Notes: a model not told the origin generated them from the sequence alone. Shown: positions 13,191-60,498, numbered from the stretch's first letter. The stretch is DNA of 64,000 nucleotides from Candidatus Woesearchaeota archaeon (GCA_003599055.1 QZIM01000023.1:24346-88345); one strand, 5' to 3'. Numbers and translations: made by a program.

Positions 13191-13267
13191 CAACGAACAA
13201 CCGAACATCCGATAACTGACGTCTGATAACTGCTGTCTGATAACCGACAACTGATAACCAACTACCG
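13191..13267 (+). repeat. phased heptanucleotide array
   Basis: ataactg/acgtctg/ataactg/ctgtctg/ataaccg/acaactg/ataacca/actaccg in strict 7-nt phase (13212-13267), preceded by caacgaa/caaccga/acatccg. Contains the TAG stop (cta 13262-13264) of gene 13262..13738. Confidence 0.8.
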
Positions 13268-13738
13268 ATTCGCAGGCCGCAGGCCGCGCAGGTCTTCTTC
13301 TGCCGCTCGCCTGGCGTCGTAGAGTGAGCGAACGGATGTTTCAAGGCTGCGAAGGCGTAAGGAAAGGTCGGAGAGTGTGCGTTCGGCGGTTTCATCGCGG
13401 CCGGCGGATTGGGCGCGGTATTCGTCGATTGTTGCGCGGGTTGCGGCAAGGTCTTGGCGCAGTGCGTCAAGCGCTTGCGTTGTTTCTCTGCGTTCCCGTG
13501 CAAGGTCGATGCGGAGTTGGTAGAGTTCTGCGCGAAGTTCAAGGTCGCCGGTGAGGCGCTCGTAGGTTTCTTGGGCGAGTGCGCGGGTGCTGGGCGGGCG
13601 TTGTGTTTCGAGTGCGGAAATGCGCGAGGTGAGCGCGGCAACGTCTTCGCGTGGTTCTTGCGCGGGCTGCTCAGGAGTTGCAGTACAGCCGATACTGGCA
13701 ATAACAGAGATTATTCCAAGGGAGTACGCGCGTTTCAT
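13262..13738 (-). CDS. lipobox-bearing coiled-coil protein
   Basis: MKRAYSLGIISVIASIGC: signal plus [LVI][AS][GA]C lipobox-like motif. The remainder is R/E/L/A heptads. 4-nt overlap with the upstream gene. Confidence 0.55.
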   Translation of the reverse strand: MKRAYSLGIISVIASIGCTATPEQPAQEPREDVAALTSRISALETQRPPSTRALAQETYERLTGDLELRAELYQLRIDLARERRETTQALDALRQDLAATRATIDEYRAQSAGRDETAERTLSDLSLRLRSLETSVRSLYDARRAAEEDLRGLRPANR

Positions 13739-14658
13739 TTGCGTGCCTCGTCGTATGTTCTGCGCAGGGTTTCAAGTGCGCGCCGTGTTGCTTCAAGTCG
13801 TGATTCGTCTGTCGTGCTGTCGCGAAGGGTGTCTGCGAGGGTGCGGTCAAGGTTTTGTGCTGCGGACATAAATTCTGAATAGGCGCGCGTATCGGCTGAT
13901 TCGCCGGAAAGGATGCGTTCTGCGCGTTCGATGCGCTCGATTGCGGTTGTGAGTCGTGCGCGTTCTTCTGCGGCGATTCTGCGGTCGGCGTAGATTCCGG
14001 TTCCACTTCGCGCATCACCGATGATTGCGCGCATTTGCTCAATGCCGTCGTAAAGGTCGTGCCGTGCGGTCTGCAGGTCGCGTCGGGTGGTGTCGAGTTG
14101 TGAGGTGACTCGGGCGATTTCTGTGCGGTTTTGGTCTGCGCGCGTGTTCAGGTCGGTTTGGATGCGTCCAAGTCTGTCGTCGATGCGCAGGTTCAGGGCG
14201 TTGAGTGCGTCGCGTTGTGCGGTGACAAGCGAGTCGTAGTCGCGCCGAAATCCTGCAAGTGCTTCACGTTGTGTTTGGTCGAGTTGTGAGAATCGCGTTT
14301 CAAAGGTCGTGCGGGTTTGTTCAAGGGTTCGAAGGGCGCCTGCGATGTCTTGTTTTGCCGCGGTGAGTTCTGTTTCAAGGTAGGTGCGGTTGTCGCGTGC
14401 GAGCCGTTCGGTAAGTTCGCGCGTTTCCCGGTTGATTGCGCGGGCGTCTTCAAGGACGTTTTCGTGGAACGCCCGGTCGCGAAGCCAGGGGCCTTGGCGC
14501 ATGTTGCTGTTGATGTCTGCGATTGCCGCAAGGAGTTCTGCGCGGTCTGCTTGGCGCGCTTGCTGCATTTTTGCCTGGTATTCTTCAAAAGTTCCGGAGG
14601 TGACGCAGCCTGCGAGCCATAAAAGTCCTGCGCCTGTGGCAAAAGTCCGACGGTTCAT
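13735..14658 (-). CDS. lipobox-bearing coiled-coil protein (307 aa)
   Basis: MNRRTFATGAGLLWLAGCVTSG (LAGC lipobox-like), followed by about 280 aa of coiled-coil-type sequence rich in R/D/E/L/T. Confidence 0.55.
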   Translation of the reverse strand: MNRRTFATGAGLLWLAGCVTSGTFEEYQAKMQQARQADRAELLAAIADINSNMRQGPWLRDRAFHENVLEDARAINRETRELTERLARDNRTYLETELTAAKQDIAGALRTLEQTRTTFETRFSQLDQTQREALAGFRRDYDSLVTAQRDALNALNLRIDDRLGRIQTDLNTRADQNRTEIARVTSQLDTTRRDLQTARHDLYDGIEQMRAIIGDARSGTGIYADRRIAAEERARLTTAIERIERAERILSGESADTRAYSEFMSAAQNLDRTLADTLRDSTTDESRLEATRRALETLRRTYDEARK

Positions 14659-14700
14659 AAGGCGAACGGATGGTGCCCATTATAAAAATGTTGCGTTAAG

Positions 14701-14715
14701 TACCACTATCAAATG
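14701..14715 (-). promoter_or_regulatory. palindromic upstream motif (degenerate copy)
   Basis: TACCACTATCAAATG matches CACCACTCTCAAGTG at 12/15 positions. It lies 11 nt distal to the TATA (14679-14690) of the 13735..14658 operon. Confidence 0.35.
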
Positions 14716-14761
14716 ATAACTGAAGAAAAGTTTATAAGTGACAGGATAGCAGGGAGAGGAT

Positions 14762-17695: not shown

Positions 17696-17732
17696 CTGAG
17701 CACTGATAACCGATAACTGATAACCAACTGCC
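17696..17732 (+). repeat. phased heptanucleotide array
   Basis: ctgagca/ctgataa/ccgataa/ctgataa/ccaactg/cc. The first 25 nt are identical to 21752-21776. It lies between two + strand genes. Confidence 0.8.
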
Positions 17733-21202: not shown

Positions 21203-21412
21203 TTACCTGTCCCGCGTGAAATATTGAATGAATTTGTCGTCAACTTTCTTGGGCCTTCCCGCTTTGCTTTTTGGTTGGGGCGGGGCAAAGACGCGCGAGC
21301 GTACCGTTTCAATGATGTATTCTTGGGGGCTCTGTGCGCGTTCATCTGATTTTTGGATGATTGCGTCAAGGAGTTTTGGGTTAATGGTGAGCTTGAGCTG
21401 TTTGTTTTTCAT
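21203..21412 (-). CDS. ribbon-helix-helix (CopG/Arc-like) DNA-binding protein
   Basis: 69 aa; KLTINPKLLDAIIQKSDERAQSPQEYIIETVRSRV fits a beta-strand / helix / helix RHH layout, followed by a basic tail. Confidence 0.5.
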   Translation of the reverse strand: MKNKQLKLTINPKLLDAIIQKSDERAQSPQEYIIETVRSRVFAPPQPKSKAGRPKKVDDKFIQYFTRDR

Positions 21413-21418
21413 TTGGAA

Positions 21419-21464: not shown

Positions 21465-21543
21465 ATTTCGTTTATTGTCGATAAATCAACGATTGCAAAA
21501 TATTCAATTTTTTTGAATTTTTATTGTATTATGCCCATTCGCT

Positions 21544-21602
21544 CTGATAACTGATAACTGACAACTGATAACTGAACACCGACAACCGGCTGCCAATAAC
21601 CG
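21544..21602 (+). repeat. phased heptanucleotide array
   Basis: ctgataa/ctgataa/ctgacaa/ctgataa/ctgaaca/ccgacaa/ccggctg/ccaataa/ccg. Confidence 0.85.
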
Positions 21603-21603
21603 T

Positions 21604-21751: not shown

Positions 21752-21830
21752 CTGAGCACTGATAACCGATAACTGAAAACTGACAACCGACCACGAACTA
21801 CCAACTGCCACCCGCTAACCGCCAACCGCC
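21752..21830 (+). repeat. phased heptanucleotide array
   Basis: ctgagca/ctgataa/ccgataa/ctgaaaa/ctgacaa/ccgacca/cgaacta/ccaactg/ccacccg/ctaaccg/ccaaccg/cc. The last units encode the stop (cta 21815-21817) and the C-terminal ..AVGG of the DHH gene. Confidence 0.85.
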
Positions 21831-23209: not shown

Positions 23210-23251
23210 TCATTAACTGATAACTGAACACCGATAACTGATGACTAAAAA
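23210..23251 (+). repeat. phased heptanucleotide array (short)
   Basis: tcattaa/ctgataa/ctgaaca/ccgataa/ctgatga/ctaaaaa, directly upstream of the SD/ATG of 23265. Confidence 0.7.
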
Positions 23252-24185: not shown

Positions 24186-24700
24186 TGTCCGAAATCCTTG
24201 ACATCGTTGATGCGAACGACCGGGTGATTGGTTCAGCAAAATCAAAGGACGTCTATGCGCAAAAATTGCTCCACCGCATTGTGCACGTTTTTGTAATTAA
24301 TCCTAAGACGAATCAGGTCTATTTCCAGAAGCGCGCGGAGTCAAAGTCCTATTTGCCGGGATTCTATTGCACTTCGGCAGGCGGGCACGTGCGCTCGGGC
24401 GAGTCTTATGAACAGGCGGCAAGGCGCGAGCTCAAGGAAGAGCTCGGTCTTGACATCCCCGTAAGGAAGGTTCACCGTACAAACTTCCTGCTTGACGGTC
24501 ACGACCGTTTTATCGAGCTTTTTGTCGCGTTTGCTGAGGGCGGAATCAGTTTTGCTGACGGCGAGGTTGCGGGCGGCGGGTTTTTATCTATGGATGATGC
24601 TCGGCAAGTCATAGAGAGAGGAGAGAAGGTTCACCCGCAGCTTGATGTGTGTTTTCGGTGGCTCAGTGCCAATAGGGCCGTTCTGTTTCCTGAGAACTGA
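24185..24700 (+). CDS. Nudix hydrolase
   Basis: Nudix box GGHVRSGESYEQAARRELKEELGL (GX5EX7REUXEEXGU). Confidence 0.8.
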   Translation: MSEILDIVDANDRVIGSAKSKDVYAQKLLHRIVHVFVINPKTNQVYFQKRAESKSYLPGFYCTSAGGHVRSGESYEQAARRELKEELGLDIPVRKVHRTNFLLDGHDRFIELFVAFAEGGISFADGEVAGGGFLSMDDARQVIERGEKVHPQLDVCFRWLSANRAVLFPEN

Positions 24701-24755
24701 TAACTGAATACTGACCGCTTGCTACAAGCCGCAAACTATCGACCGCTGCCCGCTA
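24690..24755 (+). repeat. phased heptanucleotide array in a convergent spacer
   Basis: ctgagaa/ctgataa/ctgaata/ctgaccg/cttgcta/caagccg/caaacta/tcgaccg/ctgcccg/cta. Supplies TGA (24698-24700) to the + gene and TAG (cta 24753-24755) to the - gene. Confidence 0.75.
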
Positions 24756-25684: not shown

Positions 25685-25740
25685 CTGATAACTGGCGTCT
25701 GATAACCGAAAACCAATTACCAACCACCAACTACCAACTA
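25685..25740 (+). repeat. phased heptanucleotide array
   Basis: ctgataa/ctggcgt/ctgataa/ccgaaaa/ccaatta/ccaacca/ccaacta/ccaacta. The last unit is the TAG stop of 25738..26121. Confidence 0.85.
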
Positions 25741-26175: not shown

Positions 26176-26266
26176 CTGATAACTGATAACTGACGTCTGA
26201 TAACTGATCTGAGAACCAATAATCAACCACTAACTACAAACCACCAACAACCAACTGCCGACTATC
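26176..26266 (+). repeat. phased heptanucleotide array (13 units)
   Basis: ctgataa/ctgataa/ctgacgt/ctgataa/ctgatct/gagaacc/aataatc/aaccact/aactaca/aaccacc/aacaacc/aactgcc/gactatc. Contains the TAG stop (cta 26262-26264) of the downstream minus-strand gene. Confidence 0.85.
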
Positions 26267-26672: not shown

Positions 26673-26675
26673 TGT

Positions 26676-34242: not shown

Positions 34243-34851
34243 ATGAGGATAAAAATGGTAGTGTTACTCTTCTTGCTGATGAGTGCAGGAGTATGGGCAT
34301 GCAGTCTGACTAAAATTCCACCCCACATATCATTTGTCAGTAAAGACGAAGCAGTCTGCCATTCAATGATATCCACGTTCGATTCTCAAGGATTCAAACC
34401 ACCAAGCAGCGTGGCAATTCCTTGCACAATTCAAATCTCAAGCGTGTCAAGCGAAAGACCTTCCGCAAACGAACGAATAGACTCAATCGCATTGAGTGCA
34501 CCTGATTCTGAAACCATACTAAACTTTTTGACAAAATATCAAGACCAATACGTATCAATAGAAAAGCAAAGTGACAGTGAGTTCAATGAGTTTGAACAGA
34601 TGAGAAAGACTGTCAATGCTAATATTTGTAATTGTTCAAGAATAGATTTAATTGAGCGCTCTGATGGCTGGACTGCGTACACGATGGATGTAAAAGACAC
34701 TTGTTCTTTTGGAGCAAGCTGTTGGACGCCTCCTGCGCCGTGTCCTGGCGCGGATTACGTTGGCTTGCGAGCAAAGTTAACCTTCTGGGATATTGTTAAG
34801 CTGCCGTGGGCGTTTTTGAAGTTTATCAAATTCACCATATTTAATCTCTGA
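34243..34851 (+). CDS. AT-rich hypothetical secreted protein (lipobox-like VWAC)
   Basis: MRIKMVVLLFLLMSAGVWAC signal; Cys-rich C-terminus. Visibly lower GC (about 40-42% in sampled 60-mers) than the surrounding genes (about 53%). Confidence 0.45.
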   Translation: MRIKMVVLLFLLMSAGVWACSLTKIPPHISFVSKDEAVCHSMISTFDSQGFKPPSSVAIPCTIQISSVSSERPSANERIDSIALSAPDSETILNFLTKYQDQYVSIEKQSDSEFNEFEQMRKTVNANICNCSRIDLIERSDGWTAYTMDVKDTCSFGASCWTPPAPCPGADYVGLRAKLTFWDIVKLPWAFLKFIKFTIFNL

Positions 34852-34941
34852 GAACTGAAGACTGACTTCTGAGAACTGATAACTGAAAACCGAGAACTGA
34901 GTCATACCAACCACCAACTACAAACAACCAACTACTGACTA
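34848..34941 (+). repeat. phased heptanucleotide array (13 units) in a convergent spacer
   Basis: ctgagaa/ctgaaga/ctgactt/ctgagaa/ctgataa/ctgaaaa/ccgagaa/ctgagtc/ataccaa/ccaccaa/ctacaaa/caaccaa/ctactga/cta. Supplies TGA 34849-34851 to the + gene and TAG (cta 34939-34941) to aspS. Confidence 0.85.
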
Positions 34942-41039: not shown

Positions 41040-41116
41040 CCGACTTCTGAGAACTGCCCTCTGATAACCGAAAACTGAGTACTGATAACTAATAACAAAT
41101 TACCAAAAACCGCCAA
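41040..41116 (+). repeat. phased heptanucleotide array (11 units)
   Basis: ccgactt/ctgagaa/ctgccct/ctgataa/ccgaaaa/ctgagta/ctgataa/ctaataa/caaatta/ccaaaaa/ccgccaa, in a convergent spacer. Confidence 0.85.
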
Positions 41117-41810: not shown

Positions 41811-41908
41811 CTGAACACTGGCCTTTGAGAACTGAAAACTGAGCACCGATAACCAAAAACCAACAACCAATAGCTACTAACTACTAACGACCAACCACCA
41901 ACTAACTC
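41811..41908 (+). repeat. phased heptanucleotide array (14 units)
   Basis: ctgaaca/ctggcct/ttgagaa/ctgaaaa/ctgagca/ccgataa/ccaaaaa/ccaacaa/ccaatag/ctactaa/ctactaa/cgaccaa/ccaccaa/ctaactc. Includes the TAG stop (cta 41902-41904) of 41902..42372. Confidence 0.85.
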
Positions 41909-42385: not shown

Positions 42386-42427
42386 CTGATAACTGATTAC
42401 TGACAACTGAAAACCAATTATCAACCT
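42386..42427 (+). repeat. phased heptanucleotide array in a divergent spacer
   Basis: ctgataa/ctgatta/ctgacaa/ctgaaaa/ccaatta/tcaacct. Confidence 0.8.
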
Positions 42428-52659: not shown

Positions 52660-52660
52660 A

Positions 52661-52749
52661 TGGGGGTAGTCGGATTTGAACCAACGACGTCACCGTGGCT
52701 GAGTAGTTACACTTCAGCGGTGTGTTCTCCCGGGCTGAACTATACCCCC
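52661..52749 (-). tRNA. tRNA-Phe (GAA) with a 15-nt canonical 37/38 BHB intron
   Basis: Acceptor GGGGGTA/TACCCCC; D arm GTTC-AGCCCGGGA-GAAC; anticodon stem CACCG/CGGTG; loop CU-GAA-G|intron TGTAACTACTCAGCC|A (intron 52697-52711). The hBHBh' motif is CTGA:TCAG with bulges AGT and CCA. G37; T arm GTTGG-TTCAAAT-CCGAC; discriminator A. Confidence 0.85.
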
Positions 52750-52775
52750 GTGTGCTGTTCTTATTTCAATAACTT

Positions 52776-52786
52776 GTTTAAAAAAG
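52776..52786 (-). promoter_or_regulatory. TATA-like box upstream of tRNA-Phe
   Basis: The minus strand reads CTTTTTTAAAC, 26 nt upstream of the tRNA 5' end. Confidence 0.5.
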
Positions 52787-52794
52787 TATAGGTT

Positions 52795-53082
52795 TTAGGT
52801 GACAATCTCAAGCTGTCCGAACTTTCCCGTGCCAAGTTGTCTCTCTCCGCGGAATTCTGAGACGTAGCCGTTGGTTATTTTGACTCTCATTCCTGCTTTG
52901 ACTTGGTCAACTTGTTCGTTCCAGAGGGTCAGGGTTATTTCGCCTGATGCGTCTTTTGCTTTGGCGTTGGCGACTTTGCCGGTCTTGCCGAACTTGTCAA
53001 ACGTGCGTGGCTCTTGGACCGATACGATTTCAACCGTGATGTCTACTTTTCCTTGTCCTGCCTGCAGGTCTTTTATTTCCAT
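52795..53082 (-). CDS. single OB-fold nucleic-acid-binding protein (SSB/RPA-like)
   Basis: 95 aa; ..GKVDITVEIVSVQEPRTFDKFGKTGKVANAKAKDASGEITLTLWNEQVDQVKAGMRVKITNGYVSEFRGERQL.. is the classic short OB-fold layout. TAGGAGGT SD. Confidence 0.6.
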   Translation of the reverse strand: MEIKDLQAGQGKVDITVEIVSVQEPRTFDKFGKTGKVANAKAKDASGEITLTLWNEQVDQVKAGMRVKITNGYVSEFRGERQLGTGKFGQLEIVT

Positions 53083-53094
53083 TCTTGATACCTC

Positions 53095-54573
53095 CTAAAG
53101 GGTGATTTTTCCGGTGACGAGTTGGTACAATTCATCTTTAAGCGCGTCAATTTTGACGCGTTTTTGCGCGCTGGAATCGCGTGCGCGAATCGTAACGTCG
53201 TTGTTGTTCAAAGAGTCGAAGTCTATGGTTATGCACCACGGCACGCCGATTTCGTCCATACGCGCGTAGCGCTTGCCGATTGAGCCGGTTTCATCGAGCT
53301 GAACCTCGTAGCAGTCGCGAAGGGTTTCAAAGAGTTCGCGTGCTTTTGAGGTCAGTTCGGGTTTGTTGGAGAGGAGCGGGAATATTCCTGCGGTTAAGGG
53401 AGCAATCGCAGGCGGCAAGGAGAGCCAGGTTCGTTCGCCCTCACTGCGGTAGCAAAGTTCAAGGACTGTATAAAATGTGCGGTCGAGCCCGATTGAGATT
53501 TCCCAGATGTGGGGGATGAACTTTTTGCCTTCGGGGGTGCAGAACTGTAAGTCTTTTTGGCTGCCTTTTTGGTGGCCGAGTAAATCATAGTCCGTTCGGT
53601 AGTTATTCGCGGCAAGTTCGAGCCAGCCAAGGGATGTTTCAACTTCAAGGTCAAATGCTTCTTTGGCGTAGAATGCGCGTTCGGTGTCGTCAAGCTGGCG
53701 GAAGCGCATTTTTGAGGCAGGGATGCCGAGTCGTTCCATCAGTTGTTGTGTGCGGGCAATATAGTATGCGATGAGTTTTCCGGTCGTTATTCCTTTTGCG
53801 AGCAGGTCGGCGCAGGTGATGTCTTCAACGCTGTTTGAGCCTGCTTTCATAATACGCAGCGGATAGTTCTTAACTTCGTCCCAGCGTTCGACATCGTCAA
53901 TCTTGTCCGCTTCGAAGAAGATTTCTGCTTCCATTTGGGAGAATTCTACTTGGCGAAGGAGGGTTTGGCGTGGCGAGATTTCGTTGCGAAATACTTTGCC
54001 GTGCTGTGCGATTCCTTTGGGGAGTTTGATGCGCATTGTTTTTGCCATGCGTTGCCAGTTGGTGAAGATGGTCTGGCAGGTTTCGGGGCGCAGATAGCAG
54101 CTTGCTTTGGCGGAGACGCCAACGTCTGCCTTGACCATCATGTTGAACTGGCGAACGTCGAGAAGGTCGCCTTTGCAGTTGGGGCAGGCAAGCTTGTGTT
54201 TGCGAAGGGCAGCGGTTAATTCTTCAACCGGCATTGCTTCGCGGTATTGTTCTTTTGTTTTTTCTTCGAGTAATTTGTCTGCACGGTGTATCGTGTTGCA
54301 TTTCTTGCACTGCGTGACCGGGTCATTGAAATTTGTCAAATGCCCGCTTGCCTTAAACACATCCTCAGGCATAATTAATGCGCCGTCTATTTCGAGCATC
54401 TCTTCGCGCTGGACGAGGTGTTTGCGCCAGGTTTCAACGATTTTACGGCGAATGGTTGCGCCAACCGGCCCAAAATCATAGAGTCCTGCGGGCGCGTTTG
54501 CGTAGATTTCGCTGCCCGGGTAAAAGAGTGACCTGCGGAGCGCCAAATTGACGACGTCTTCGTATTTCGCCAT
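53095..54573 (-). CDS. glyS: glycyl-tRNA synthetase (alpha2 archaeal/eukaryal type)
   Basis: RRSLFYPGSEIYANAPAGLYDFGPVG, LRPETCQTIF, and a C-terminal anticodon-binding domain. 492 aa. Confidence 0.95.
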   Translation of the reverse strand: MAKYEDVVNLALRRSLFYPGSEIYANAPAGLYDFGPVGATIRRKIVETWRKHLVQREEMLEIDGALIMPEDVFKASGHLTNFNDPVTQCKKCNTIHRADKLLEEKTKEQYREAMPVEELTAALRKHKLACPNCKGDLLDVRQFNMMVKADVGVSAKASCYLRPETCQTIFTNWQRMAKTMRIKLPKGIAQHGKVFRNEISPRQTLLRQVEFSQMEAEIFFEADKIDDVERWDEVKNYPLRIMKAGSNSVEDITCADLLAKGITTGKLIAYYIARTQQLMERLGIPASKMRFRQLDDTERAFYAKEAFDLEVETSLGWLELAANNYRTDYDLLGHQKGSQKDLQFCTPEGKKFIPHIWEISIGLDRTFYTVLELCYRSEGERTWLSLPPAIAPLTAGIFPLLSNKPELTSKARELFETLRDCYEVQLDETGSIGKRYARMDEIGVPWCITIDFDSLNNNDVTIRARDSSAQKRVKIDALKDELYQLVTGKITL

Positions 54574-54595
54574 ACGGTTCTTCGCGCAGAGTTTT

Positions 54596-54606
54596 GTTTA
54601 AAAAGG
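54596..54606 (-). promoter_or_regulatory. TATA-like box of glyS
   Basis: The minus strand reads CCTTTTTAAAC, 23 nt upstream of the ATG, which implies a leaderless or very short-leader mRNA. Confidence 0.45.
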
Positions 54607-54610
54607 TTGC

Positions 54611-54656
54611 GGGAAAAGAAAAGGGGGTGCCCCGAGGCGAGGTTTGACCTCGGGGC
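54611..54656 (-). terminator. hairpin plus T-tract downstream of gene 54684..54893
   Basis: Perfect 9-bp stem GCCCCGAGG/CCTCGGGGC (54629-54637 / 54648-54656). On the minus strand it is followed by CCCCCTTTTCTTTTCCC. Confidence 0.5.
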
Positions 54657-54683
54657 CCAAGAAGGAGTTGTGGCTTGTAAGTG

Positions 54684-54893
54684 TCAGGCGGTGAATCCTT
54701 TGGTGAGGAACCACGCGCAGTGTTCGGTTTGTCCTAAGGGGACGGGCTTGCTTGTTCTTGGGCGTGAAATGATTTTTTCGCGCAGGTGGACCGTGCTTGG
54801 TTTTGGCAGGGCGAGGTCTGTTCCGGGCATTCCGAATTCTTCTTCGTCTTCGACAAAGTCAACCGGGTTTGCATAGTCAAGGAGGTCTTTCAT
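54684..54893 (-). CDS. 69-aa hypothetical protein
   Basis: The internal ATG (54893, per the ORF-track frame) is preceded by GGAGG. MKDLLDYANPVDFVEDEEEFGMPG... has an acidic N-terminus. The longer track ORF lacks an RBS. Confidence 0.4.
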   Translation of the reverse strand: MKDLLDYANPVDFVEDEEEFGMPGTDLALPKPSTVHLREKIISRPRTSKPVPLGQTEHCAWFLTKGFTA

Positions 54894-55166
54894 TTTTAGT
54901 GCCTCCGAAGGTTGAGCGGGCTGCGTTTGGGCGCGAGTGTTTGGCGCGTGAGCGCGGTTATTTGTTCGATGAACAATTGTTGGATGTGTTGGGTTTCCAT
55001 AAGGTATCACCTCGTTTTCAGCAGGTTTGTCTGCCGTCAACAAACAACAAGCTGCCAACAATCGTTTATATAGCCCGCGAGGGAGAATGTCCAGTGTCCA
55101 GTGAGCTTTGTCGTCGGGAGTTCAAAAGCTGGCGCAAGTCAGAATGAAACCGAAAAGAAAGGCGAG

Positions 55167-56141
55167 TTACCTTGCGGCAAAGTAGTGCGCGATTGTTGCA
55201 AGTGCTGATTGTTGTGCGGGTTCGCCGACGGAGTGCAGTGCAAGTACTTCTTTGGTTTGGCGGGGCCGCTCAAAAGTGACGTTTTGCGCAATGGACAGGA
55301 CTGTTCGTAATGCAGTGTCTCCGGTAAGTGAGCGTTCGGGCAGGCGGAGTTCTCCGTCAAAATAGTGTCCGTTGAGGAATCGCAGAAGGCCAAATGCCCG
55401 TCCCTTGTGCCGGACGGCAATTGCGTAGTCCGGTCCGCTAAGGCGGGTGAAGGTGTCCGCGCGCACGTTAAAGATGTTGCTGCCAAGTCCGTTTATTTCA
55501 AGTTGTTGGCGAATGGAATATGCGTATGCGGGAAGGGCTGCAGCAGGGAGTGCCTGGACTCCCGCGCCGACGTAGTCAGGGCTGTTGTGGTCAAGAGGTT
55601 TTGTGTCAAACGTAAGGGGTTGGTACGATAAAAGGGCAAGGAATGCGGCGAGTGCGGGTTCTCTGCGGAGTTGTTCGCATCCGGTGTTGGTTACTGCGGC
55701 AAAGAGGTTCCCGTCAACAAAGGAAAGAGTCCCTGACTGGTTTTTGCCGCGGAAGGTGAGCGCGCAGGTGTCTTGGGAGAGGTATTGAAAGAGGCGTGTT
55801 GCGTTTTCTCTTTGTGTGGGGAGCGCTTTTGGTTCGAGTTCGTAGAGTGCCTGTTCGATGGTGTCGTAAACGGGGATTGGCTCTGTTGCGCGTGCTGCCC
55901 GTTTAAAGCCGCGGGTGATAGGCGTTGTGGGAAGGCAAACAGTTCCGACGCGGAATGGCTCAGGGTCGTTGACAAGGGTGCTTTCTCCGTGAAGGCGTGT
56001 GCCGCTGATGAGGAACGGGTGCTGGTCCGGTTCAAGGAGGAATTCGTAGGGTCTTTTGAGGGATTGAAGAGGGATTGGAATGAATTCATACCCATCGCCG
56101 CTTGTGTGGTACAGTTGTTCAACGCTCTTTTCAAGTGCCAT
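55167..56141 (-). CDS. hypothetical protein (324 aa)
   Basis: Long ORF with ordinary composition, co-directional with the folB cluster. No motif recognised. Confidence 0.45.
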   Translation of the reverse strand: MALEKSVEQLYHTSGDGYEFIPIPLQSLKRPYEFLLEPDQHPFLISGTRLHGESTLVNDPEPFRVGTVCLPTTPITRGFKRAARATEPIPVYDTIEQALYELEPKALPTQRENATRLFQYLSQDTCALTFRGKNQSGTLSFVDGNLFAAVTNTGCEQLRREPALAAFLALLSYQPLTFDTKPLDHNSPDYVGAGVQALPAAALPAYAYSIRQQLEINGLGSNIFNVRADTFTRLSGPDYAIAVRHKGRAFGLLRFLNGHYFDGELRLPERSLTGDTALRTVLSIAQNVTFERPRQTKEVLALHSVGEPAQQSALATIAHYFAAR

Positions 56142-56158
56142 TTTTGTATACTGGTTTC

Positions 56159-56761
56159 CTATTGTTCTCTTGTTTTTAAGCTTAACGTCTTAGTAACGGA
56201 GTGGTAACTCGGCTCGCTTCCGGGTTTAATTGGGCAAACAATAAACCCGCGGTGGACTGCTGCGCGAACAGGGATGTGGTCAAGTGAGCGCCGGGCCATT
56301 CTTGAAGTGAGGGCGAGTTCATCAGCGTGTTGTTGGGCGGTAAAATAGGACGCGGGCTCATTTGTCCGGACATAGATTGCTTCAACGTGGGCAAATGCAG
56401 TAGGGTCTTGCTGGGAGTAGGTGGTGAGTGTTTCTGCAATTTCGTGTTGCGTGAGGGGACGTGCGGAATAGAGGCGCGCGATTTTTGTGCGGGTGTTGAT
56501 TTCAAGGTTGCCAATGATGATTTCTTCTTCTTTTGGCCGGAATTCAGGCGTGACGGTTGTGTTAAAGGCAGTGCGTACCCGTTCTGCAAGGGTTGTTGCT
56601 GCGTGCTCGTCTTGAACGGGCGCGACAACGCGTGCGCGGTTTCCGTCAGAATAAACGCGGTCTTCTTTGCGAAGGAAGGAGCGGAGCGCATCAGGGCTGA
56701 TAGGGACGGTAAAGCAGGCGTATCCGGAAGTGGTGTTTCGCCGGTCAGGATGGTCGCCCAT
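56159..56761 (-). CDS. hypothetical protein (200 aa)
   Basis: The internal ATG 56761 avoids overlap with folB. No motif recognised. Confidence 0.4.
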   Translation of the reverse strand: MGDHPDRRNTTSGYACFTVPISPDALRSFLRKEDRVYSDGNRARVVAPVQDEHAATTLAERVRTAFNTTVTPEFRPKEEEIIIGNLEINTRTKIARLYSARPLTQHEIAETLTTYSQQDPTAFAHVEAIYVRTNEPASYFTAQQHADELALTSRMARRSLDHIPVRAAVHRGFIVCPIKPGSEPSYHSVTKTLSLKTREQ

Positions 56762-56820
56762 GCAAAAAAGCAGGGCAGACGGGCATCTAAACGCTTGGTG
56801 CGTATTGTACGAAAGTACGG

Positions 56821-57168
56821 CTATCGGGTGATGGTGATTGCGGCGTGGTCGGCGAAGCAAACGAGTGCGCCGGGCTTTTCGATGCGGACCGTTGCAGAAG
56901 TGACGGGATAGTTTTCCTTAATGAGTGCGGCAATGCGGTGTGCAAGGTGTTCCACTGTTGAGAACGTATGGTTTCCAAGGGCACGAATGTCACGGGCAAC
57001 GTCTCGATAGTCAATGGTGTCTGAAATAAGGTCGGTTCTGCCCGCAAGGGAGAGGTCGCAGGCAAGGGTTATGTCGGCAAAGAGCGCTTGGGGTTCTTTG
57101 CGTTCGTCATCGGTAATGCCGATGCGCGTCCAGAGTGCGAGTTTGCGGATGTGGATGGTGTCAGTCAT
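56821..57168 (-). CDS. folB: dihydroneopterin aldolase
   Basis: 115 aa; IHIRKLALWTRIGITDDERKEPQALFADITL...DTIDYRDVARDI is the FolB/tunnelling-fold pattern. Confidence 0.75.
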   Translation of the reverse strand: MTDTIHIRKLALWTRIGITDDERKEPQALFADITLACDLSLAGRTDLISDTIDYRDVARDIRALGNHTFSTVEHLAHRIAALIKENYPVTSATVRIEKPGALVCFADHAAITITR

Positions 57169-57776
57169 AGGGTGTGCCGAAAGCTCAGGGTGTATCGTTC
57201 GGTGGCAGGGGTCGTGACGCAGTGGTATGGCCTGAGTTTTCCTTCGCCTTTTTTTCGTGGTGCGCGAAGGAGAATGACGCTGCCGGGCGGGTTTTCAAGA
57301 GGTGCAATTTCTTCGCGTGTTTTTCCTGCGTGAAATTGCCGGTTGCCTGAAATAACGTAAATGGCAATGAGGTTGCGATAGCGAAGTTCATCGCGGTGCG
57401 TTGAGATGCCAAAGCTGCCGAGGGGAAAATGGTGCGCGCTGTAGGTGATTTTGGCAGTTGGCTCAAATAAGGCAAGATGTCCGAGGCAGTCATAAAATTG
57501 GGCGTGTGCCGCCGCTAATTCTTTGATAAGGCCTGCTGATTCAGGCAGCGATTCAAGCGCGTGCGTGTCTTCTCCGAATCGGGAAAAGTCCTGGACGGAG
57601 TTGTGGTAGATTGGGGGAACTTGGGTGAACGGTCCTTGGCGCAGCTGTTCAAGAAGCGCAAGCCGAAAATCAAGGGGCAGGACGTCAGTGATAATACGGG
57701 TGCCGGCGTGCGCGGGAGAATAAAGCTCATTTGCGATGAGTTCGAGTTTTCCTGGCGGGATTGTGAGGGCGACCAT
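57165..57776 (-). CDS. hypothetical protein, possible Fe(II)/2-oxoglutarate dioxygenase fold
   Basis: H-x-D (STHRDE) ... distal His (PYHCV) ... RYTLSFR spacing resembles the 2OG-oxygenase facial triad plus the 2OG-binding Arg. 4-nt overlap with folB. Confidence 0.3.
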   Translation of the reverse strand: MVALTIPPGKLELIANELYSPAHAGTRIITDVLPLDFRLALLEQLRQGPFTQVPPIYHNSVQDFSRFGEDTHALESLPESAGLIKELAAAHAQFYDCLGHLALFEPTAKITYSAHHFPLGSFGISTHRDELRYRNLIAIYVISGNRQFHAGKTREEIAPLENPPGSVILLRAPRKKGEGKLRPYHCVTTPATERYTLSFRHTL

Positions 57777-57882
57777 TCGGGCATCATCACCGGGCGTGTT
57801 TTTATGTTCTCGTGAACGGTTTATTCCGAAAAGAATAATTCTGGGAGGAATATTTTTATATGAATCAGAGTATCATCTGCAT

Positions 57883-58416
57883 ATGTTCGAGATAACAACG
57901 GTGAAGGCACAAAGATTAAAACTTGGCTTAACGCAGCACAAGCTTGCCAAGCTTGCGGGTGTTTCGCAGAGTCTGCTTGCAAAACTCGAGGCCGGCCGAA
58001 TTGACCCCGCATACAGTTCGGTAAGGAAAATCGAGCAGGCGTTGCAGGCGGCAACGGGCGCTCAGGAGCCGATAGCGCGTGATTTGATGGTGAGAAAAGT
58101 GTGCGTGGCATCGCCGGGTGATGATGCGCGCAGCGTTGCGTTGCTTTTGAGAAAGCACGCAATCAGCCAGGTTCCGGTGATAAAGGATGGTTGTGTTCTT
58201 GGGATGGTCACGGAGTCGGGCTTGCTTGATGAGGACCGTTTGGACAACAAGGCCGCAAAAGACGTGATGTCTCCCGCTCCTCCGCAATTGCCCGAGGATG
58301 CGCGAAGGTCACTCATAATCAGCTTGCTGCACCAATACCCGTGTGTGCTCGTGCAAAAGGACGGGAAGTTGGCCGGGCTCATAACAAAGGCGGATGTGGT
58401 AAAGGCATTGATTTAG
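57883..58416 (+). CDS. XRE-type HTH + CBS-pair transcriptional regulator
   Basis: RLKLGLTQHKLAKLAGVSQSLLAKLEAG (HTH_3), followed by two CBS motifs. TATA TATTTTTATA lies 21-32 nt upstream of ATG 57883. Confidence 0.75.
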   Translation: MFEITTVKAQRLKLGLTQHKLAKLAGVSQSLLAKLEAGRIDPAYSSVRKIEQALQAATGAQEPIARDLMVRKVCVASPGDDARSVALLLRKHAISQVPVIKDGCVLGMVTESGLLDEDRLDNKAAKDVMSPAPPQLPEDARRSLIISLLHQYPCVLVQKDGKLAGLITKADVVKALI

Positions 58417-59459
58417 AACTCATCGAGGCTCTTGTGCTTGAGCATAGTGGTGGTTCCGTCTTTTCCGCCGATGATTTTTTTGGTTTCAATAAATCCGCCT
58501 GCATTGAGTTCTTCAACTCTGCGTTGGAACGTCTTGTACGTGCCTGAGCCGCCGATGTCTTGGTATTGTTTGAAGAGGTCGCCCATTTTGCCGCTTTGTG
58601 TTTTGACAAGTTCGAGGATGAGTTTTGCTTCGGGGGAGAGGGCTTCTTCGGGCTTGATGCTGAAGTCGGTGAGTTTTGCGAGTGCGCGGTTTGCGTGTTC
58701 GGTGGTGATTTTGCGTGCGTCCTGTTCTTCTGCGGCAAGTCCTGCTTCGCGAAGGAGGTAAAGGCCTAATCGCAGGTCTCCTTTTTGCGCGGTTTTTTGG
58801 GCGATGATGTCAAAAGTTGCGTCTTCAAGGGCGCCCGAGTGGAATGCGTATTCTGCGCGTGAGCGAAGGATTCCCGCGATTTCCTGGGTGGTATATGCGG
58901 TAAAGTCGATGCGTTCGGGAAGGAGGCGTGATTTGATGCGCGCATCGACCGTGGCGTACCATTGGGGATGGTTGGTGATGAGGAGGATGGTTTTTTTGTA
59001 AATTTCGGTGAAGATGTGGTAGAGGAAGTCGCAGTCTTCGACCTTGTCAATTTCGTCGAAGGCGAATACTGCTGCTTTTTTGTTGACGATGTTTGCGATG
59101 ATTTTGAACAGGTCTTCGGTGTTTTTGTTTTGGACGAACTTGTATCCGAGTTGTTCGCAAAGTTCGATGAAGATTTTGTACGTGGTGTTTTTTTGCCAGC
59201 AGTTCACATACAATATGGCAGTGTCGGGCGCGCTTGCGTCTGGGTGTTCTTCAAGTTCTTTTAATACCAGCTTTACTGCGGCGGTTTTGCCGATTCCGGG
59301 GGCGCCGGAGATGATGCAGTTGCGCCCGTTTCGCCCTTGGAGGAGTGGCTTGATGCACGCGGCGATTTGGTGGTGCTGGGTTTCCCGATAGGGGAGGTTC
59401 TTGGGCAGCCATTCCGTGTCGAGCGCGTCCTCGTTTTTGAATATGCGGCTTTCAGCCAT
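58413..59459 (-). CDS. cdc6: Orc1/Cdc6 replication initiator
   Basis: LPYRETQHHQIA.., Walker A GAPGIGKTA, Walker B VFAFDEID, and a C-terminal winged helix (..TFQRRVEELNAGGFIETKK..). Confidence 0.9.
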   Translation of the reverse strand: MAESRIFKNEDALDTEWLPKNLPYRETQHHQIAACIKPLLQGRNGRNCIISGAPGIGKTAAVKLVLKELEEHPDASAPDTAILYVNCWQKNTTYKIFIELCEQLGYKFVQNKNTEDLFKIIANIVNKKAAVFAFDEIDKVEDCDFLYHIFTEIYKKTILLITNHPQWYATVDARIKSRLLPERIDFTAYTTQEIAGILRSRAEYAFHSGALEDATFDIIAQKTAQKGDLRLGLYLLREAGLAAEEQDARKITTEHANRALAKLTDFSIKPEEALSPEAKLILELVKTQSGKMGDLFKQYQDIGGSGTYKTFQRRVEELNAGGFIETKKIIGGKDGTTTMLKHKSLDEF

Positions 59460-59524
59460 ACGGTTTTCTCGCCCAAAGCGGTTTAATAAGATTGTGGTGG
59501 TGAATCAGAAGAGTTTACGAAAAG

Positions 59525-60103
59525 TTACCGCACGTTTACTGTCTCGCCTATTTGTTTTGTCTGTCCGTTCCAGTTGACGATGCCGACGAATCGTTGCGGG
59601 CCGATTTTGCCTTGCGCAAGGCCCTTGTCGTTGACCCAGCGTTCTTTGGCAGGGTCGTACGTGAATTGGTTTGAGGGCAGTATGCCGGGAACGTTTGCCG
59701 TGCCGAAGAGGTCGAATGTTCCGTCTGAGTGGATGACGGTAAGGAAGATGGTGACGTCAAATGCTGATGTGAGCGGGGGCGAGCCTGCGCGCGCTTGTGC
59801 GGCAAGGATGCGGTATTCTAAGGGAGTATTGAGCCGTGCTGAGCCGCCGACATCGTTTGCGCCGTATGCGTAAATGTCAAGGTCGACTGCGCCGAGTTCG
59901 GGAATTGCGGGCTTATCGGCAATTTGCGGCGTTTGGGCTGGTTGCGCAATGCGTTCTGCAAGGACTGCAGGGATGGGTGGTGAGGGGGAAGGGTCCGGAT
60001 GGGGAGGGATGATGAGCGGTTCAGGAGTTTGAAGTCGTGGCGCCTGCGGTTGAGCGCACCCGGCAAGGAAGAGAACTGCAAGGATGATGAGCGCGTTTTT
60101 CAT
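59525..60103 (-). CDS. lipobox-bearing secreted hypothetical protein
   Basis: MKNALIILAVLFLAGCAQPQ, a P-rich linker, and a beta-rich C-terminal domain. Confidence 0.5.
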   Translation of the reverse strand: MKNALIILAVLFLAGCAQPQAPRLQTPEPLIIPPHPDPSPSPPIPAVLAERIAQPAQTPQIADKPAIPELGAVDLDIYAYGANDVGGSARLNTPLEYRILAAQARAGSPPLTSAFDVTIFLTVIHSDGTFDLFGTANVPGILPSNQFTYDPAKERWVNDKGLAQGKIGPQRFVGIVNWNGQTKQIGETVNVR

Positions 60104-60145
60104 ACGGAACGTGTTGGCGTATTGGCTTAAAAAAGTAGTGTACGG

Positions 60146-60445
60146 TTATCTGTTCAGGTGGCGAAGCGGCGTTCCGCACAACCTGCAATAGTTGTCTGTC
60201 GCGTGCGCTGTGCTCATACAGCGCGGGCAGCGAAGGATTCGTTGTTGCGCGTGTGTGGGTCTTGCTGTTTTTGTCTCTTCTTTTGGTGCTCGTTCGGTGA
60301 AGACAAACCGGTGAATGAGTTTAATTACGCCAATCAGGATGAACGCAAGACCTATCCAGATGAACAGGGTGAGTTCAGCGCGGGAGCTGACAAGAGTCAC
60401 TATCAGTCCTATTCCTATCCAGATGCTCCAATGGATTTTTGTCAT
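60146..60445 (-). CDS. small membrane protein with C-terminal zinc ribbon
   Basis: ATG 60445 is preceded by AAGAGGAAAG. Two TM helices, then CPRC..(12)..CRLC. Confidence 0.5.
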   Translation of the reverse strand: MTKIHWSIWIGIGLIVTLVSSRAELTLFIWIGLAFILIGVIKLIHRFVFTERAPKEETKTARPTHAQQRILRCPRCMSTAHATDNYCRLCGTPLRHLNR

Positions 60446-60461
60446 TTCTTTCCTCTTTTTA

Positions 60462-60498
60462 CCGACTGCCAACGACTAACCACCAACTACAAACTGCC
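60462..60498 (+). repeat. phased heptanucleotide array (CCAAC-type half only)
   Basis: ccgactg/ccaacga/ctaacca/ccaacta/caaactg/cc. Contains the TAG stop (cta 60487-60489) and the last codons of serS. Confidence 0.7.

What the first reader, a model, noticed from the sequence alone, without database searches (positions are those of the whole stretch)
13191..60498. Strand-invariant phased heptanucleotide arrays (CTGAnAA drifting to CCAAcnA) occupy at least 13 intergenic spacers
The arrays lie at 13191-13267, 17696-17732, 21544-21602, 21752-21830, 23210-23251, 24690-24755, 25685-25740, 26176-26266, 34848-34941, 41040-41116, 41811-41908, 42386-42427 and 60462-60498. Weaker traces are at 14713-14727 and 55031-55065. 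Each has 5-14 units in strict 7-nt phase.

- Internal polarity: every array begins with CTGAnAA-type units (CTGATAA is most common) and drifts into CCAAcnA/CTAAcnA units, always in that 5'->3' order on the + strand.
- Orientation never flips. The flanking genes are -/- tandem in most cases, +/+ tandem (17696), convergent (24690, 34848, 41040) or divergent (42386). I found no array of the reverse complement (TTATCAG) on the + strand.
- Stop codons: the CTGA half puts stops in all three + frames. CTA units supply the TAG stop of eight minus-strand genes (13262, 21815, 24753, 25738, 26262, 34939, 41902, 60487). CTGA supplies the TGA of two plus-strand genes (24698, 34849).
- Relatedness: 17696-17720 and 21752-21776 are identical 25-mers, so the arrays are related copies rather than independent slippage.
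- What they lack: no repeat-spacer structure, no terminal inverted repeats, no T-tract.

I know of no described archaeal element with this combination of properties. A chromosome-polar rather than gene-polar intergenic motif points to a replication/segregation-oriented or protein-binding role, or to strand-biased repeat expansion. That interpretation is inference.
Basis: partly seen in the sequence, partly recalled or inferred. Interest (0 to 1): 0.8.

Follow-up and report, generated by a model that had tools for sequence, protein, structure and literature searches.

The report
Stop-codon-anchored heptanucleotide repeat arrays in Woesearchaeon
Thirteen intergenic arrays of a 7-base repeat are real and all point the same way, but they are an archaeal case of the TAACTGA-type repeats already known in bacteria (and, as found here, in phage contigs), they sit at gene ends and change fast, and their shared orientation is explained largely, though not fully, by most nearby genes lying on one strand.

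Summary
Thirteen arrays of phased heptads (consensus C-Y-R-A-n-n-A) lie on the + strand and none on the - strand. Each runs from CTGAnAA-type "head" units to CCAAcnA-type "tail" units.

The window is chromosomal DNA of a DPANN Woesearchaeon with very strong GC skew.

- **Known family:** CTGATAA is a rotation of TAACTGA, the intergenic direct repeat described in Beggiatoaceae, cyanobacteria and Bacteroidetes (MacGregor 2015).
- **Recent and unstable:** five relatives at about 60% protein identity lack the arrays. They differ by whole units between 99.5%-identical strains.
- **Anchored to gene ends:** ten of 13 tails abut a minus-gene stop codon. Viral contigs show the same layout (35 against 9 independent contexts).

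The uniform orientation therefore follows mostly from gene-end anchoring plus the excess of minus-strand genes. A residual strand excess remains (roughly p 0.004-0.016, post hoc). The window has a single skew sign, so polarity relative to the replichore cannot be tested here.

The "identical 25-mer means related copies" argument fails a shuffle test. Best reading: slippage-driven, stop-rich, structure-poor spacers. This is a new (first archaeal) member of a known kind.

The parts
13191..13267 (+). Array in a -/- spacer. Good register runs from 13209 to 13264. The tail CTA (13262-13264) is the TAG stop of the 158-aa minus gene. The head lies 120 nt upstream, in minus sense, of the ATG of the 376-aa gene, with a TTTATATA box in between.
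17696..17732 (+). Array in the +/+ spacer between the Ser/Thr kinase and AglB/STT3. It has four head units and one tail unit. It lies 60 nt after the kinase stop and 48 nt before the AglB ATG, and abuts no stop codon. It is one of the two 'sense' (minority-type) arrays.
21544..21602 (+). Array whose tail abuts the TAA stop (21604-21606) of a 35-aa membrane-protein gene on the minus strand. It has at least two more units in the 99.5% identical strain, whose contig ends inside this array.
21752..21830 (+). Array after the DHH phosphoesterase gene. The tail overlaps the last codons and the TAG stop (21815-21817). The head lies 39 nt upstream of the ATG of the 35-aa gene. In relatives these two genes overlap.
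23210..23251 (+). Array in the divergent spacer between DHH and PhoU. It ends 13 nt before the PhoU ATG, with GAGGTG in between. It is a 'forward, upstream of start codon' array of the kind reported for the Beggiatoaceae genome BOGUAY. Its units are rearranged in the other strain.
24690..24755 (+). Array filling the convergent spacer. The first CTGA gives the TGA of the NUDIX gene (+). The last CTA gives the TAG of the 111-aa gene (-).
25685..25740 (+). Array after OapC (-), whose TAG is at 25738-25740. It is followed, in minus sense, by a TTTAAATATA box and the 162-aa gene. It is the only array whose minus-sense RNA folds into a significant hairpin (z = -7).
26176..26266 (+). Array between OapB (TAG at 26262-26264) and OapC. 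The spacer is 140 nt here, against 1-4 nt in the four relatives that keep the two genes adjacent. A 2-nt deletion relative to the other strain breaks the phase.
34848..34941 (+). Array filling the convergent spacer. The first CTGA gives the TGA of the 202-aa gene (+). The last CTA gives the TAG of AspRS (-). The phase shifts near 34904.
41040..41116 (+). Array in a convergent spacer. Its tail ends 2 nt before the TAA stop of the 205-aa minus gene. Its head starts 32 nt after the TAG of the 182-aa plus gene.
41811..41908 (+). Longest array (14 units) in a -/- spacer. The tail supplies the TAG of the 156-aa gene (41902-41904). The head lies 74 nt upstream of the ATG of the 205-aa gene, with a TTTAAAAA box in between.
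42386..42427 (+). Array in the divergent spacer. Its head lies 13 nt upstream, in minus sense, of the ATG of the 156-aa gene. Its tail lies 74-92 nt upstream of the secretion-ATPase (T2SSE) gene on the + strand.
60462..60498 (+). Short array made mostly of tail units after SerRS (TAG at 60487-60489). Its head lies 16 nt upstream of the ATG of the 99-aa gene. It is identical in the JGI and Logan assemblies.
11907..11920 (+). Two-unit tail-like mini-array (CTAAGTA CTAACTA) about 20 nt from the stop of the 376-aa minus gene. It was not in the finding and may be a proto-array.

Best explanation
The arrays are lineage-specific, fast-evolving tandem repeats of one heptanucleotide family. Their consensus is C-Y-R-A-n-n-A on the + strand, which reads T-n-n-T-Y-R-G on the other strand.

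**What they are.** The commonest unit, CTGATAA, is a rotation of TAACTGA. They are therefore an archaeal case of the intergenic TAACTGA-type simple-sequence repeats known from bacteria.

**How they are placed.** They are anchored to gene ends. Read in the sense of the neighbouring gene, the order is:
1. the stop codon;
2. a few TAGTTGG-like 'tail' units;
3. TTATCAG-like 'head' units;
4. the promoter or ribosome-binding site of the next gene.

**How they change.** They grow and shrink by whole units. I attribute this to slipped-strand mispairing during replication; that step is inferred.

**Why they are tolerated.** This step is also inferred. They carry stops in all frames in both directions: TGA and TAA on +, TAG on -. 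They have almost no self-complementarity. They lie between the upstream stop and the downstream promoter. In effect they are stop-rich, structure-poor spacers that separate genes which are contiguous or overlapping in relatives.

**Why they share one orientation.** Mainly because of gene-end anchoring combined with the excess of minus-strand genes among genes that have a 3' spacer. It is not shown to be a replication-oriented signal.
For: **Shown**
- *Family identity and spread.*
  - MacGregor 2015 describes the TAACTGA repeats.
  - The same head-to-tail order occurs in 10 of 12 mixed arrays elsewhere.
- *Recent origin.*
  - Five Woesearchaeal relatives at about 60% DHH identity share the local synteny but have no arrays (L122, L124, L125, L250, L251).
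  - The OapB-OapC spacer is 1-4 nt in the four relatives that keep the two genes adjacent, against 140 nt here.
  - DHH and the small downstream gene overlap in the relatives, against a 100-nt spacer here.
- *Instability.*
  - The 99.5% identical strain differs by about 47 changes in 8 kb.
  - About 20 of those changes fall in three arrays. They include a gain of at least two units and a 2-nt indel.
  - One contig ends inside an array.
- *Anchoring.*
  - Ten of 13 tails lie 0-3 nt from a minus-gene stop.
  - The C-termini of OapB, OapC and DHH keep the lengths of their orthologs.
  - TAG is the stop of 8 of 12 array-adjacent genes, against 9 of 49 other genes.
  - All four convergent spacers carry arrays.
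  - TATA-like boxes lie between the array heads and the next start codons.
- *Same layout in phage contigs.*
  - A stop of the opposite-strand gene lies within 12 nt of the tail in 82(+8) of 179 arrays.
  - A same-strand stop at the head occurs in 9(+8).
  - After de-replication this is 35 against 9 contexts.
  - The median distance from the head to the next ATG is 27 nt, with AGGAG in between.
- *Orientation follows genes rather than composition.*
  - In other genomes with strong local skew, the CTGA strand lies on the C-rich strand in 33 arrays against 14.
  - Here it lies on the G-rich strand.
- *Lack of structure.* Both strands are unstructured as ssDNA. The + sense RNA has a minimum folding energy of about 0 to -7 kcal/mol.
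Against: - Gene anchoring does not explain everything.
  - In all four convergent spacers the tail is at the minus gene (1/16).
  - The two or three unanchored arrays are also on +.
  - No plus-gene end carries a reversed array, even at the two-unit level.
  - Jointly this is roughly p 0.004-0.016.
- The gene polarity is strong only in viral contigs. In cellular genome and metagenome loci it is weak (32 against 22, and 17 against 12). The strong prior is therefore borrowed from phages.
- Conservation along the unit is uneven: C1 97%, R3 99%, Y2 92%, A4 88%, A7 78%, with positions 5 and 6 free. Neutral decay of a microsatellite would not give this, so some constraint or templating is hinted at.
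- The arrays are clustered. Twelve of 21 spacers between 13 and 42.5 kb carry one, against 1 of 21 elsewhere. Neither slippage nor anchoring explains that.
- Slippage itself is inferred from differences between strains, not observed.
Confidence: 0.5

Rival explanations
1. Replichore-polar element. The orientation is fixed relative to the direction of replication. Two causes are possible. Expansion or survival of the repeat could depend on which strand is the lagging-strand template. Alternatively, the array could be a cis signal read on one strand, for example for priming, for fork-associated proteins or for chromosome organisation.
For: - All 13 arrays are on the + strand (2 x 0.5^13 = 2.4e-4 if orientation were random), with no reversed mini-arrays.
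- The residual excess after allowing for gene anchoring is roughly p 0.004-0.016 (counts).
- GC skew is extreme (+0.10 to +0.34) and independent of gene strand. Its sign is reversed in a syntenic relative (L251), so it is linked to replication in this clade.
- A DPANN genome with a bacterial-type skew pattern has been published (PMC5905446).
- The arrays are islands of opposite skew: GC skew -0.38 and AT skew +0.37, against +0.21 and +0.03 in the other spacers.
- MacGregor noted that eight between-stop sets in Microcystis all share one chromosomal orientation.
- Orientation-dependent instability of repeats is established for other repeats. This last point is from my own knowledge and was not tested here.
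Against: - The window and 7.7 kb beyond it have a single skew sign, so polarity is untested.
- In other genomes the family occurs on both strands within a few kb (21 same and 21 opposite for neighbouring unpaired arrays), and as inverted pairs.
- Relative to local skew, the window is the minority arrangement (14 against 33).
- Neither strand forms ssDNA structure that could drive orientation-dependent slippage.
- Single CTGATAA units outside arrays are not skewed (4 against 3).
- The arrays are clustered regionally rather than spread along the replichore.
Confidence: 0.25
2. Functional binding array. The phased CYRAnnA (UnnUYRG in RNA) units would be sites for a protein that binds RNA or single-stranded DNA, or for an antisense RNA. 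The array would act after transcription, on termination, on mRNA 3'-end stability, or on access of ribosomes to the next cistron.
For: - Conservation is position-specific, with free positions 5 and 6.
- The same unit family and the same internal polarity recur in distant bacteria, phages and this archaeon.
- In phage contigs the arrays sit directly between a stop codon and the next ribosome-binding site.
- In BOGUAY they replace Shine-Dalgarno sequences. S1, Csp and CsrA were proposed as binders.
- All four CYRA variants can pair with UUGG through wobble pairs. This is read from the sequence and is an inference.
Against: - No binder is known in any organism.
- The arrays are absent from close relatives whose genes are otherwise the same, so they are dispensable.
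- They vary between near-identical strains.
- In this archaeon a promoter usually lies between the array and the next gene. The array is then not in that gene's leader.
- No Rfam family matches.
- Only one array folds significantly.
Confidence: 0.17
3. Dispersed copies of one element. The arrays would be spread by transposition, by insertion of single-stranded DNA or by gene conversion, and their orientation would be inherited from the source copy.
For: - The arrays at 17696 and 21752 share an identical 25-mer.
- Recurrent odd units appear next to CTGATAA, such as CTGACGT and CTGAACA.
- The arrays are clustered regionally.
Against: - Shared two- and three-unit words are at the level of the shuffle null: 8 observed against 7.4 expected, and 1 against 0.67.
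- There are no terminal inverted repeats, target-site duplications or conserved flanks.
- No transposase turned up in the roughly 20 window ORFs scanned against Pfam or in the precomputed Pfam calls for L121, L127 and L249. Several small ORFs were not scanned.
Confidence: 0.06
4. Chance or assembly artefact.
For: Repeats break assemblies, and one Logan contig ends inside an array.
Against: - Zero matches are expected by shuffling, against 34 observed.
- The arrays are recovered at the same places in independent assemblies from different samples.
Confidence: 0.01

Closest known systems
Intergenic TAACTGA direct repeats of marine Beggiatoaceae, cyanobacteria and Bacteroidetes (MacGregor 2015, Front Microbiol, PMC4679880)
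   Same: - Same heptamer: CTGATAA is TAACTGA rotated.
- Tandem, mostly intergenic, and mixed with related heptamers ('split sets').
- Copy number differs between close strains in steps of 7 nt.
- No known binder.
- Sets lying between stop codons were noted in Microcystis, all in one chromosomal orientation.
   Different: - In BOGUAY most sets point 'forward' and end about 1 nt before a start codon. Here only two of 13 arrays are in that sense.
- Here the arrays have a head-to-tail gradient (CTGAnAA to CCAAcnA), and the tail abuts the stop of the opposite-strand gene.
- The host is an archaeon. The paper reports none.
Long simple-sequence repeats of prokaryotes, in which heptanucleotide units are the commonest class (Mrazek et al. 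2007, as summarised in PMC4679880). STRR heptamers of heterocystous cyanobacteria belong here too (Mazel et al. 1990, from my own knowledge).
   Same: - Tandem units of 5-11 nt.
- Mainly intergenic.
- Sporadic across lineages.
- Attributed to polymerase slippage.
   Different: Those surveys describe near-perfect arrays of many different units. Here a single degenerate unit family recurs at 13 loci with a fixed internal polarity.
GGGAATC heptamer repeats of Xanthomonas and GGGGAYT repeats of Nostoc (Rehm et al. 2015, PMC4692102)
   Same: - Intergenic heptamer arrays.
- They lie much closer to the upstream ORF (about 28 nt) than to the downstream ORF (about 160 nt).
- They often occur as inverted pairs.
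   Different: - Those units are G-rich and form quadruplexes.
- They show no strand or replichore preference.
- The window's arrays have almost no G on one strand and no predicted structure.
Tandem repeats of Borg elements of Methanoperedens (Schoelmerich et al. 2023, PMC9879509)
   Same: - Archaeal context.
- Fast-evolving and recently formed.
- Absent from relatives.
- Compositionally biased (A-rich) on one strand.
- Slippage of archaeal polymerases B and D is invoked.
   Different: - Borg repeats are perfect.
- Each region has its own unit of variable length, and about half lie inside genes.
- Here the arrays are imperfect, use one 7-nt family and are intergenic only.
Replication-oriented skewed oligomers (Chi, KOPS and similar architecture-imparting sequences); from my own knowledge
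   Different: Those are single dispersed octamers that are skewed genome-wide, including inside genes. Here single units are not skewed (4 against 3 outside arrays); only tandem arrays at gene ends are.

Membership tests
TAACTGA-type intergenic heptamer direct repeats | Tandem direct copies of TAACTGA (any rotation), two or more per set, with related heptamers interspersed | tested here: met
   CTGATAA is the commonest unit (20 of 116). Runs of 2-4 copies are interrupted by CCGATAA, CTGACAA and CTGAAAA.
TAACTGA-type intergenic heptamer direct repeats | Intergenic location | tested here: met
   All 13 arrays lie in spacers. Only the last tail units overlap the stop codon or the last few codons.
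TAACTGA-type intergenic heptamer direct repeats | [quoted passage not shown] This is the BOGUAY pattern and is not universal in the family. | tested here: not met
   Only 23210 (13 nt before the PhoU ATG) and, loosely, 17696 fit. Ten arrays are in the opposite sense, after a stop codon. The paper itself reports other arrangements in Microcystis and Bacteroidetes.
Long simple-sequence repeats formed by slippage | Unit of 1-11 nt repeated in tandem more often than expected for the genome | tested here: met
   34 three-unit matches against 0 expected.
Long simple-sequence repeats formed by slippage | Copy-number polymorphism in whole units between close strains | tested here: met
   The array at 21544 has at least two more units in L121. 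The array at 23210 is rearranged. Three of the six arrays fully compared differ, at 99.5% flank identity.
Replication-oriented polar motifs (Chi, KOPS and similar) | Orientation switches with the replichore | not testable with these tools
   The window plus 7.7 kb has one skew sign. Attempts to reach more of the genome failed.
Replication-oriented polar motifs (Chi, KOPS and similar) | Single dispersed copies, also inside genes, are strand-skewed | tested here: not met
   CTGATAA outside arrays occurs 4 times against 3. The single-unit regex gives 241 against 296.
CRISPR-like repeat-spacer arrays | Repeats of 24-48 nt separated by unique spacers of similar length | tested here: not met
   The 7-nt units are contiguous, with no spacers.
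Hairpin elements (intrinsic terminators, REP-like elements) | Inverted repeat or stable stem-loop | tested here: not met
   There are no inverted pairs in the window. Only one of five arrays folded as RNA gives a significant fold (25685, minus sense, z = -7). The ssDNA folds are near 0 kcal/mol. Bacterial members of the family often do form head-to-head hairpins.
Described RNA families (Rfam 15) | Match to a covariance model | tested here: not met
   The only match at gathering score in the window is a tRNA. There are no matches at E <= 1 in 21400-26400.

The most novel reading that the evidence does not exclude
The arrays are locked to the replichore in this Woesearchaeon. The C/A-rich strand would always lie on the G-rich strand, which is presumably the lagging-strand template. 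This could arise because expansion depends on that strand, or because the phased CYRA units are read on single-stranded DNA at the fork. If so, this would be a strand-oriented repeat class in archaea. It would sit on top of a cross-domain family of heptad elements anchored to stop codons with an intrinsic head-to-tail polarity.
Probability: 0.2. Interest if true: 0.8.

Novelty: new member of a known kind. Interest (0 to 1): 0.45.

Why it matters
- If the ordinary reading is right, this is the first archaeal (DPANN) example I could find of the TAACTGA-type heptamer repeats. It is a clean natural case of their birth. Gene pairs that are contiguous or overlapping in relatives have been pushed 100-140 nt apart by arrays that still change between 99.5%-identical strains.
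- The comparison also showed regularities of the family that the one paper on it does not report:
  - anchoring of the tail at a stop codon;
  - a fixed head-to-tail unit gradient;
  - inverted pairs that are always head-to-head;
  - abundance in phage contigs.
  These make its unknown function or mechanism more open to test.
- If orientation turns out to follow the replichore, the arrays would be a new handle on replication-strand asymmetry in archaea that cannot be cultured.

Tried and rejected
1. **Terminator or hairpin idea.** RNA and DNA folds of five arrays on both strands gave one significant hairpin only (25685, minus-sense RNA). As ssDNA, both strands are unstructured. I therefore also dropped hairpin-driven, orientation-dependent slippage as an argument.
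2. **'Related copies' from the 25-mer.** A shuffle test of shared unit words gave p about 0.5.
3. **Skew rule across other genomes.** Orientation against raw local skew in bacterial loci showed nothing (54 against 58). With the arrays masked and strong skew required, the result is 33 against 14 in the direction opposite to the window.
4. **Reaching more of this genome.**
   - The AglB look-up found nothing.
   - The left-end protein gave only a 7-kb contig.
   - A homolog search with the SMC fragment returned only partial relatives at 82% identity or less.
   - Both the genome and the metagenome pattern scans were saturated by other organisms and returned no further contig of this one.
5. **Other checks.**
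   - CRISPR-type and mobile-element signatures, and Rfam matches: none.
   - The two weak traces and the repeat at 63721 are not members of the family.
   - Mutational decay as the cause of the unit gradient is rejected. The head-to-tail changes on the + strand (T>C, G>A) run against the + strand bias of the genome.

Full report
**What the window is.** The long ORFs encode archaeal and housekeeping proteins. Among them are AglB/STT3, HerA, an Mre11-like phosphoesterase, GatA/GatB, AspRS, SerRS, Orc1/Cdc6 and a type IV secretion-like ATPase. Homologs of the DHH phosphoesterase, where named, are called Candidatus Woesearchaeota. The best hit outside the same species is about 60% identical. GC content is about 52%. 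GC skew is positive in every 2-kb window (+0.10 to +0.34). It is equally positive over plus-strand and minus-strand genes (+0.25 and +0.21). A relative with the same gene order has the opposite sign (L251). The skew is therefore linked to replication, not to genes, as published for another DPANN archaeon (PMC5905446).

**Check of the observation.**
- The pattern CYRANNA x3 occurs 34 times, always on the + strand, against 0 expected from shuffles.
- With at least 3 phased units there are 17 runs on + and 0 on -. Single units are not skewed that way (241 against 296).
- Two-unit hits number 54 forward, 52 of them inside arrays. There are 2 reverse hits, both in coding DNA.
- Over 116 phased units, C1 is 97% conserved, Y2 92%, R3 99%, A4 88% and A7 78%. 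Positions 5 and 6 are free.
- In every array the CYGA units precede the CYAA units.
- Stop codons next to arrays are TAG 8, TAA 2 and TGA 2. Elsewhere they are TAA 23, TGA 17 and TAG 9.

Some corrections are needed. The phase is broken in three arrays. The two weak traces are not convincing. A two-unit mini-array at 11907 can be added.

**The arrays are real, recent and unstable.** A Logan assembly of a 99.5-99.8% identical strain carries the arrays at the same places (L121, L128). A JGI contig is identical to window 50487-64000 and continues 7.7 kb further without arrays.
- L121 and the window differ by about 47 changes in 8 kb. About 20 of them fall in the arrays at 21544, 23210 and 26176.
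- These include a gain of at least two units, swaps of units and a 2-nt indel. The L121 contig ends inside an array.
- Five relatives at about 60% identity keep the local synteny and the strong skew but have no arrays (L122, L124, L125, L250, L251).
- The OapB-OapC spacer is 1-4 nt in the four relatives that keep the two genes adjacent, against 140 nt here. DHH and the small downstream gene overlap in the relatives, against 100 nt here.
- Protein C-termini keep their length, so the arrays begin at the stop codon.

**It is a known repeat family.** CTGATAA is TAACTGA rotated. MacGregor (2015, PMC4679880) described 169 intergenic sets of TAACTGA direct repeats in a Beggiatoaceae genome, and further sets in cyanobacteria and Bacteroidetes. 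The sets include interspersed related heptamers and 7-nt indels between strains. Their function is unknown.

My scans show the family is much wider. Five phased CTGA units occur in more than 120 loci of the species-representative genomes. All 120 returned are bacterial and span many phyla. In many of them CTGA is kept while the other three bases vary. A similar pattern does so in IMG/VR viral contigs. The head-to-tail order (CYGA, then CYAA) recurs in 10 of 12 mixed arrays elsewhere.

**Regularities of the family found on the way.**
- In cellular loci the arrays often form inverted pairs. These are always head-to-head: 39 to 0, and 8 to 0 in viral loci. The two arms are complementary unit by unit, so they form long imperfect hairpins.
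- In viral contigs unpaired arrays are polar relative to genes. The stop codon of the gene on the strand opposite to CTGA lies within 12 nt of the tail in 82(+8) of 179 arrays.
- A same-strand stop at the head occurs in 9(+8). After de-replication by the 3' end of the upstream gene, this is 35 against 9 contexts.
- In the sense of the gene the layout is: stop, then TTAG/TTGG-type units, then (TTRTCAG)n, then about 27 nt containing AGGAG, then ATG.
- In cellular loci the bias is weak (32 against 22, and 17 against 12).

**Re-reading the window with this rule.**
- Ten of 13 arrays have the tail 0-3 nt from a minus-gene stop.
- Three heads lie 13-39 nt upstream of a minus-gene ATG (42386, 60462, 21752).
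- In most other cases a TATA-like box lies between the head and the next start codon.
- Two arrays (17696, 23210) are in the minority 'sense' class. The one at 23210 is of the BOGUAY type, 13 nt before the PhoU ATG.
- Minus-strand genes provide 25 of the 31 gene ends that have a 3' spacer. Gene-end anchoring alone therefore puts most arrays on the + strand.

A few things stay unexplained. All four convergent spacers have the tail at the minus gene (1/16). The two or three unanchored arrays are also on + (1/4 to 1/8). No plus-gene end carries even a two-unit reversed array, but only three such ends are free. By my arithmetic this leaves roughly p 0.004-0.016. That figure is post hoc, on a finding that was picked for its uniformity.

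**Gene rule against composition rule.** Pooled, the arrays have GC skew -0.38 and AT skew +0.37. The other spacers have +0.21 and +0.03. In other genomes with strong local skew the CTGA strand usually lies on the C-rich strand (33 against 14). There, gene strand and skew are confounded. In this window they are separated, and the arrays keep their relation to the gene rather than to the skew. This favours gene anchoring as the primary rule.

**Rejected or unsupported.**
- The identical 25-mer does not show common descent. Shared unit words match the shuffle null.
- The arrays are not hairpins or terminators, not CRISPR-like, and not in Rfam.
- Single units are not skewed, so they are not Chi- or KOPS-type motifs.
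- The unit gradient is not decay under the genome's own bias, because it runs the opposite way on the + strand.
- On the sense strand of the anchored gene the head-to-tail change is A>G, C>T and A>G plus one T>A, strongest next to the stop. This may hint at damage to the non-template strand after ribosome release. That idea is untested.

**What remains open.** The arrays cluster between 13 and 42.5 kb (12 of 21 spacers, against 1 of 21 elsewhere). Conservation within the unit is uneven. Neither fact is explained by plain slippage. Whether orientation flips with the replichore could not be tested, because all reachable sequence has one skew sign and the attempts to walk further failed.

**Verdict.**
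- These are slippage-driven, stop-rich, structure-poor heptanucleotide spacers of the TAACTGA family, anchored at gene ends. They are probably the first archaeal example.
- Chromosome polarity is possible (about 0.2-0.25) but not shown.

Noticed in passing
window 1-64000; L122-L126, L250, L251: GC skew is very strong (+0.10 to +0.34) and equal over plus-strand and minus-strand genes. Woesearchaeal relatives share it. In L251 the sign is reversed for the same gene order. About 64% of the coding DNA here lies on the C-rich strand.
   Followed up: partly
window 58413-59459 (-): An Orc1/Cdc6 gene is present, but the GC skew does not change sign there or within 12 kb on either side. The upstream spacer is only 65 nt. 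This copy is therefore not at a skew-defined origin.
   Followed up: partly
L016 3066-3143; L020 2190-2395; L156 5034-5238; L181 534-637; L209 3128-3294 and others: In bacterial and metagenome loci the same heptad family often forms back-to-back inverted pairs. These are always head-to-head (39 to 0; 8 to 0 in viral loci). The two arms are complementary unit by unit, giving long imperfect hairpins. I did not find this described in the papers I read.
   Followed up: partly
viral loci L252-L371, e.g. L255, L263, L275, L279: In phage contigs the arrays fill the gap between a stop codon and the next ribosome-binding site. The layout is: stop, TAGTTAG, (TTRTCAG)n, about 27 nt containing AGGAG, then ATG. 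They recur at orthologous positions in related phages.
   Followed up: partly
window 52661-52749 (-): Rfam finds an 89-nt tRNA here (51.6 bits) that ARAGORN did not report, so it probably contains an intron. The adjacent 234-aa gene (51955-52659, +) has a faint LAGLIDADG hit.
   Followed up: no
window 27421-27640: A 120-nt tandem duplication (1.8 copies, 87% identical) lies inside the conserved 76-aa gene at 27412-27642 (-).
   Followed up: no
window 1993-2507 (-): A ParE toxin gene and a MazE-like antitoxin gene lie next to a block of large secreted or surface proteins with Ig-like and PKD domains (2628-11848). That block contains no arrays.
   Followed up: no
window 63721-63748: The repeat CCAAAGA CCAGGAG CCAAAGA CCAAAGA matches the loose regex. 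It lies in the 5' end of the transglutaminase-core gene and is a coding repeat, not a member of the family.
   Followed up: yes
window 13071-42501 compared with the rest: The arrays are clustered. Twelve of 21 spacers in this 30-kb stretch carry one, against 1 of 21 in the rest of the window plus 7.7 kb beyond it. The boundaries were chosen after seeing the data.
   Followed up: partly
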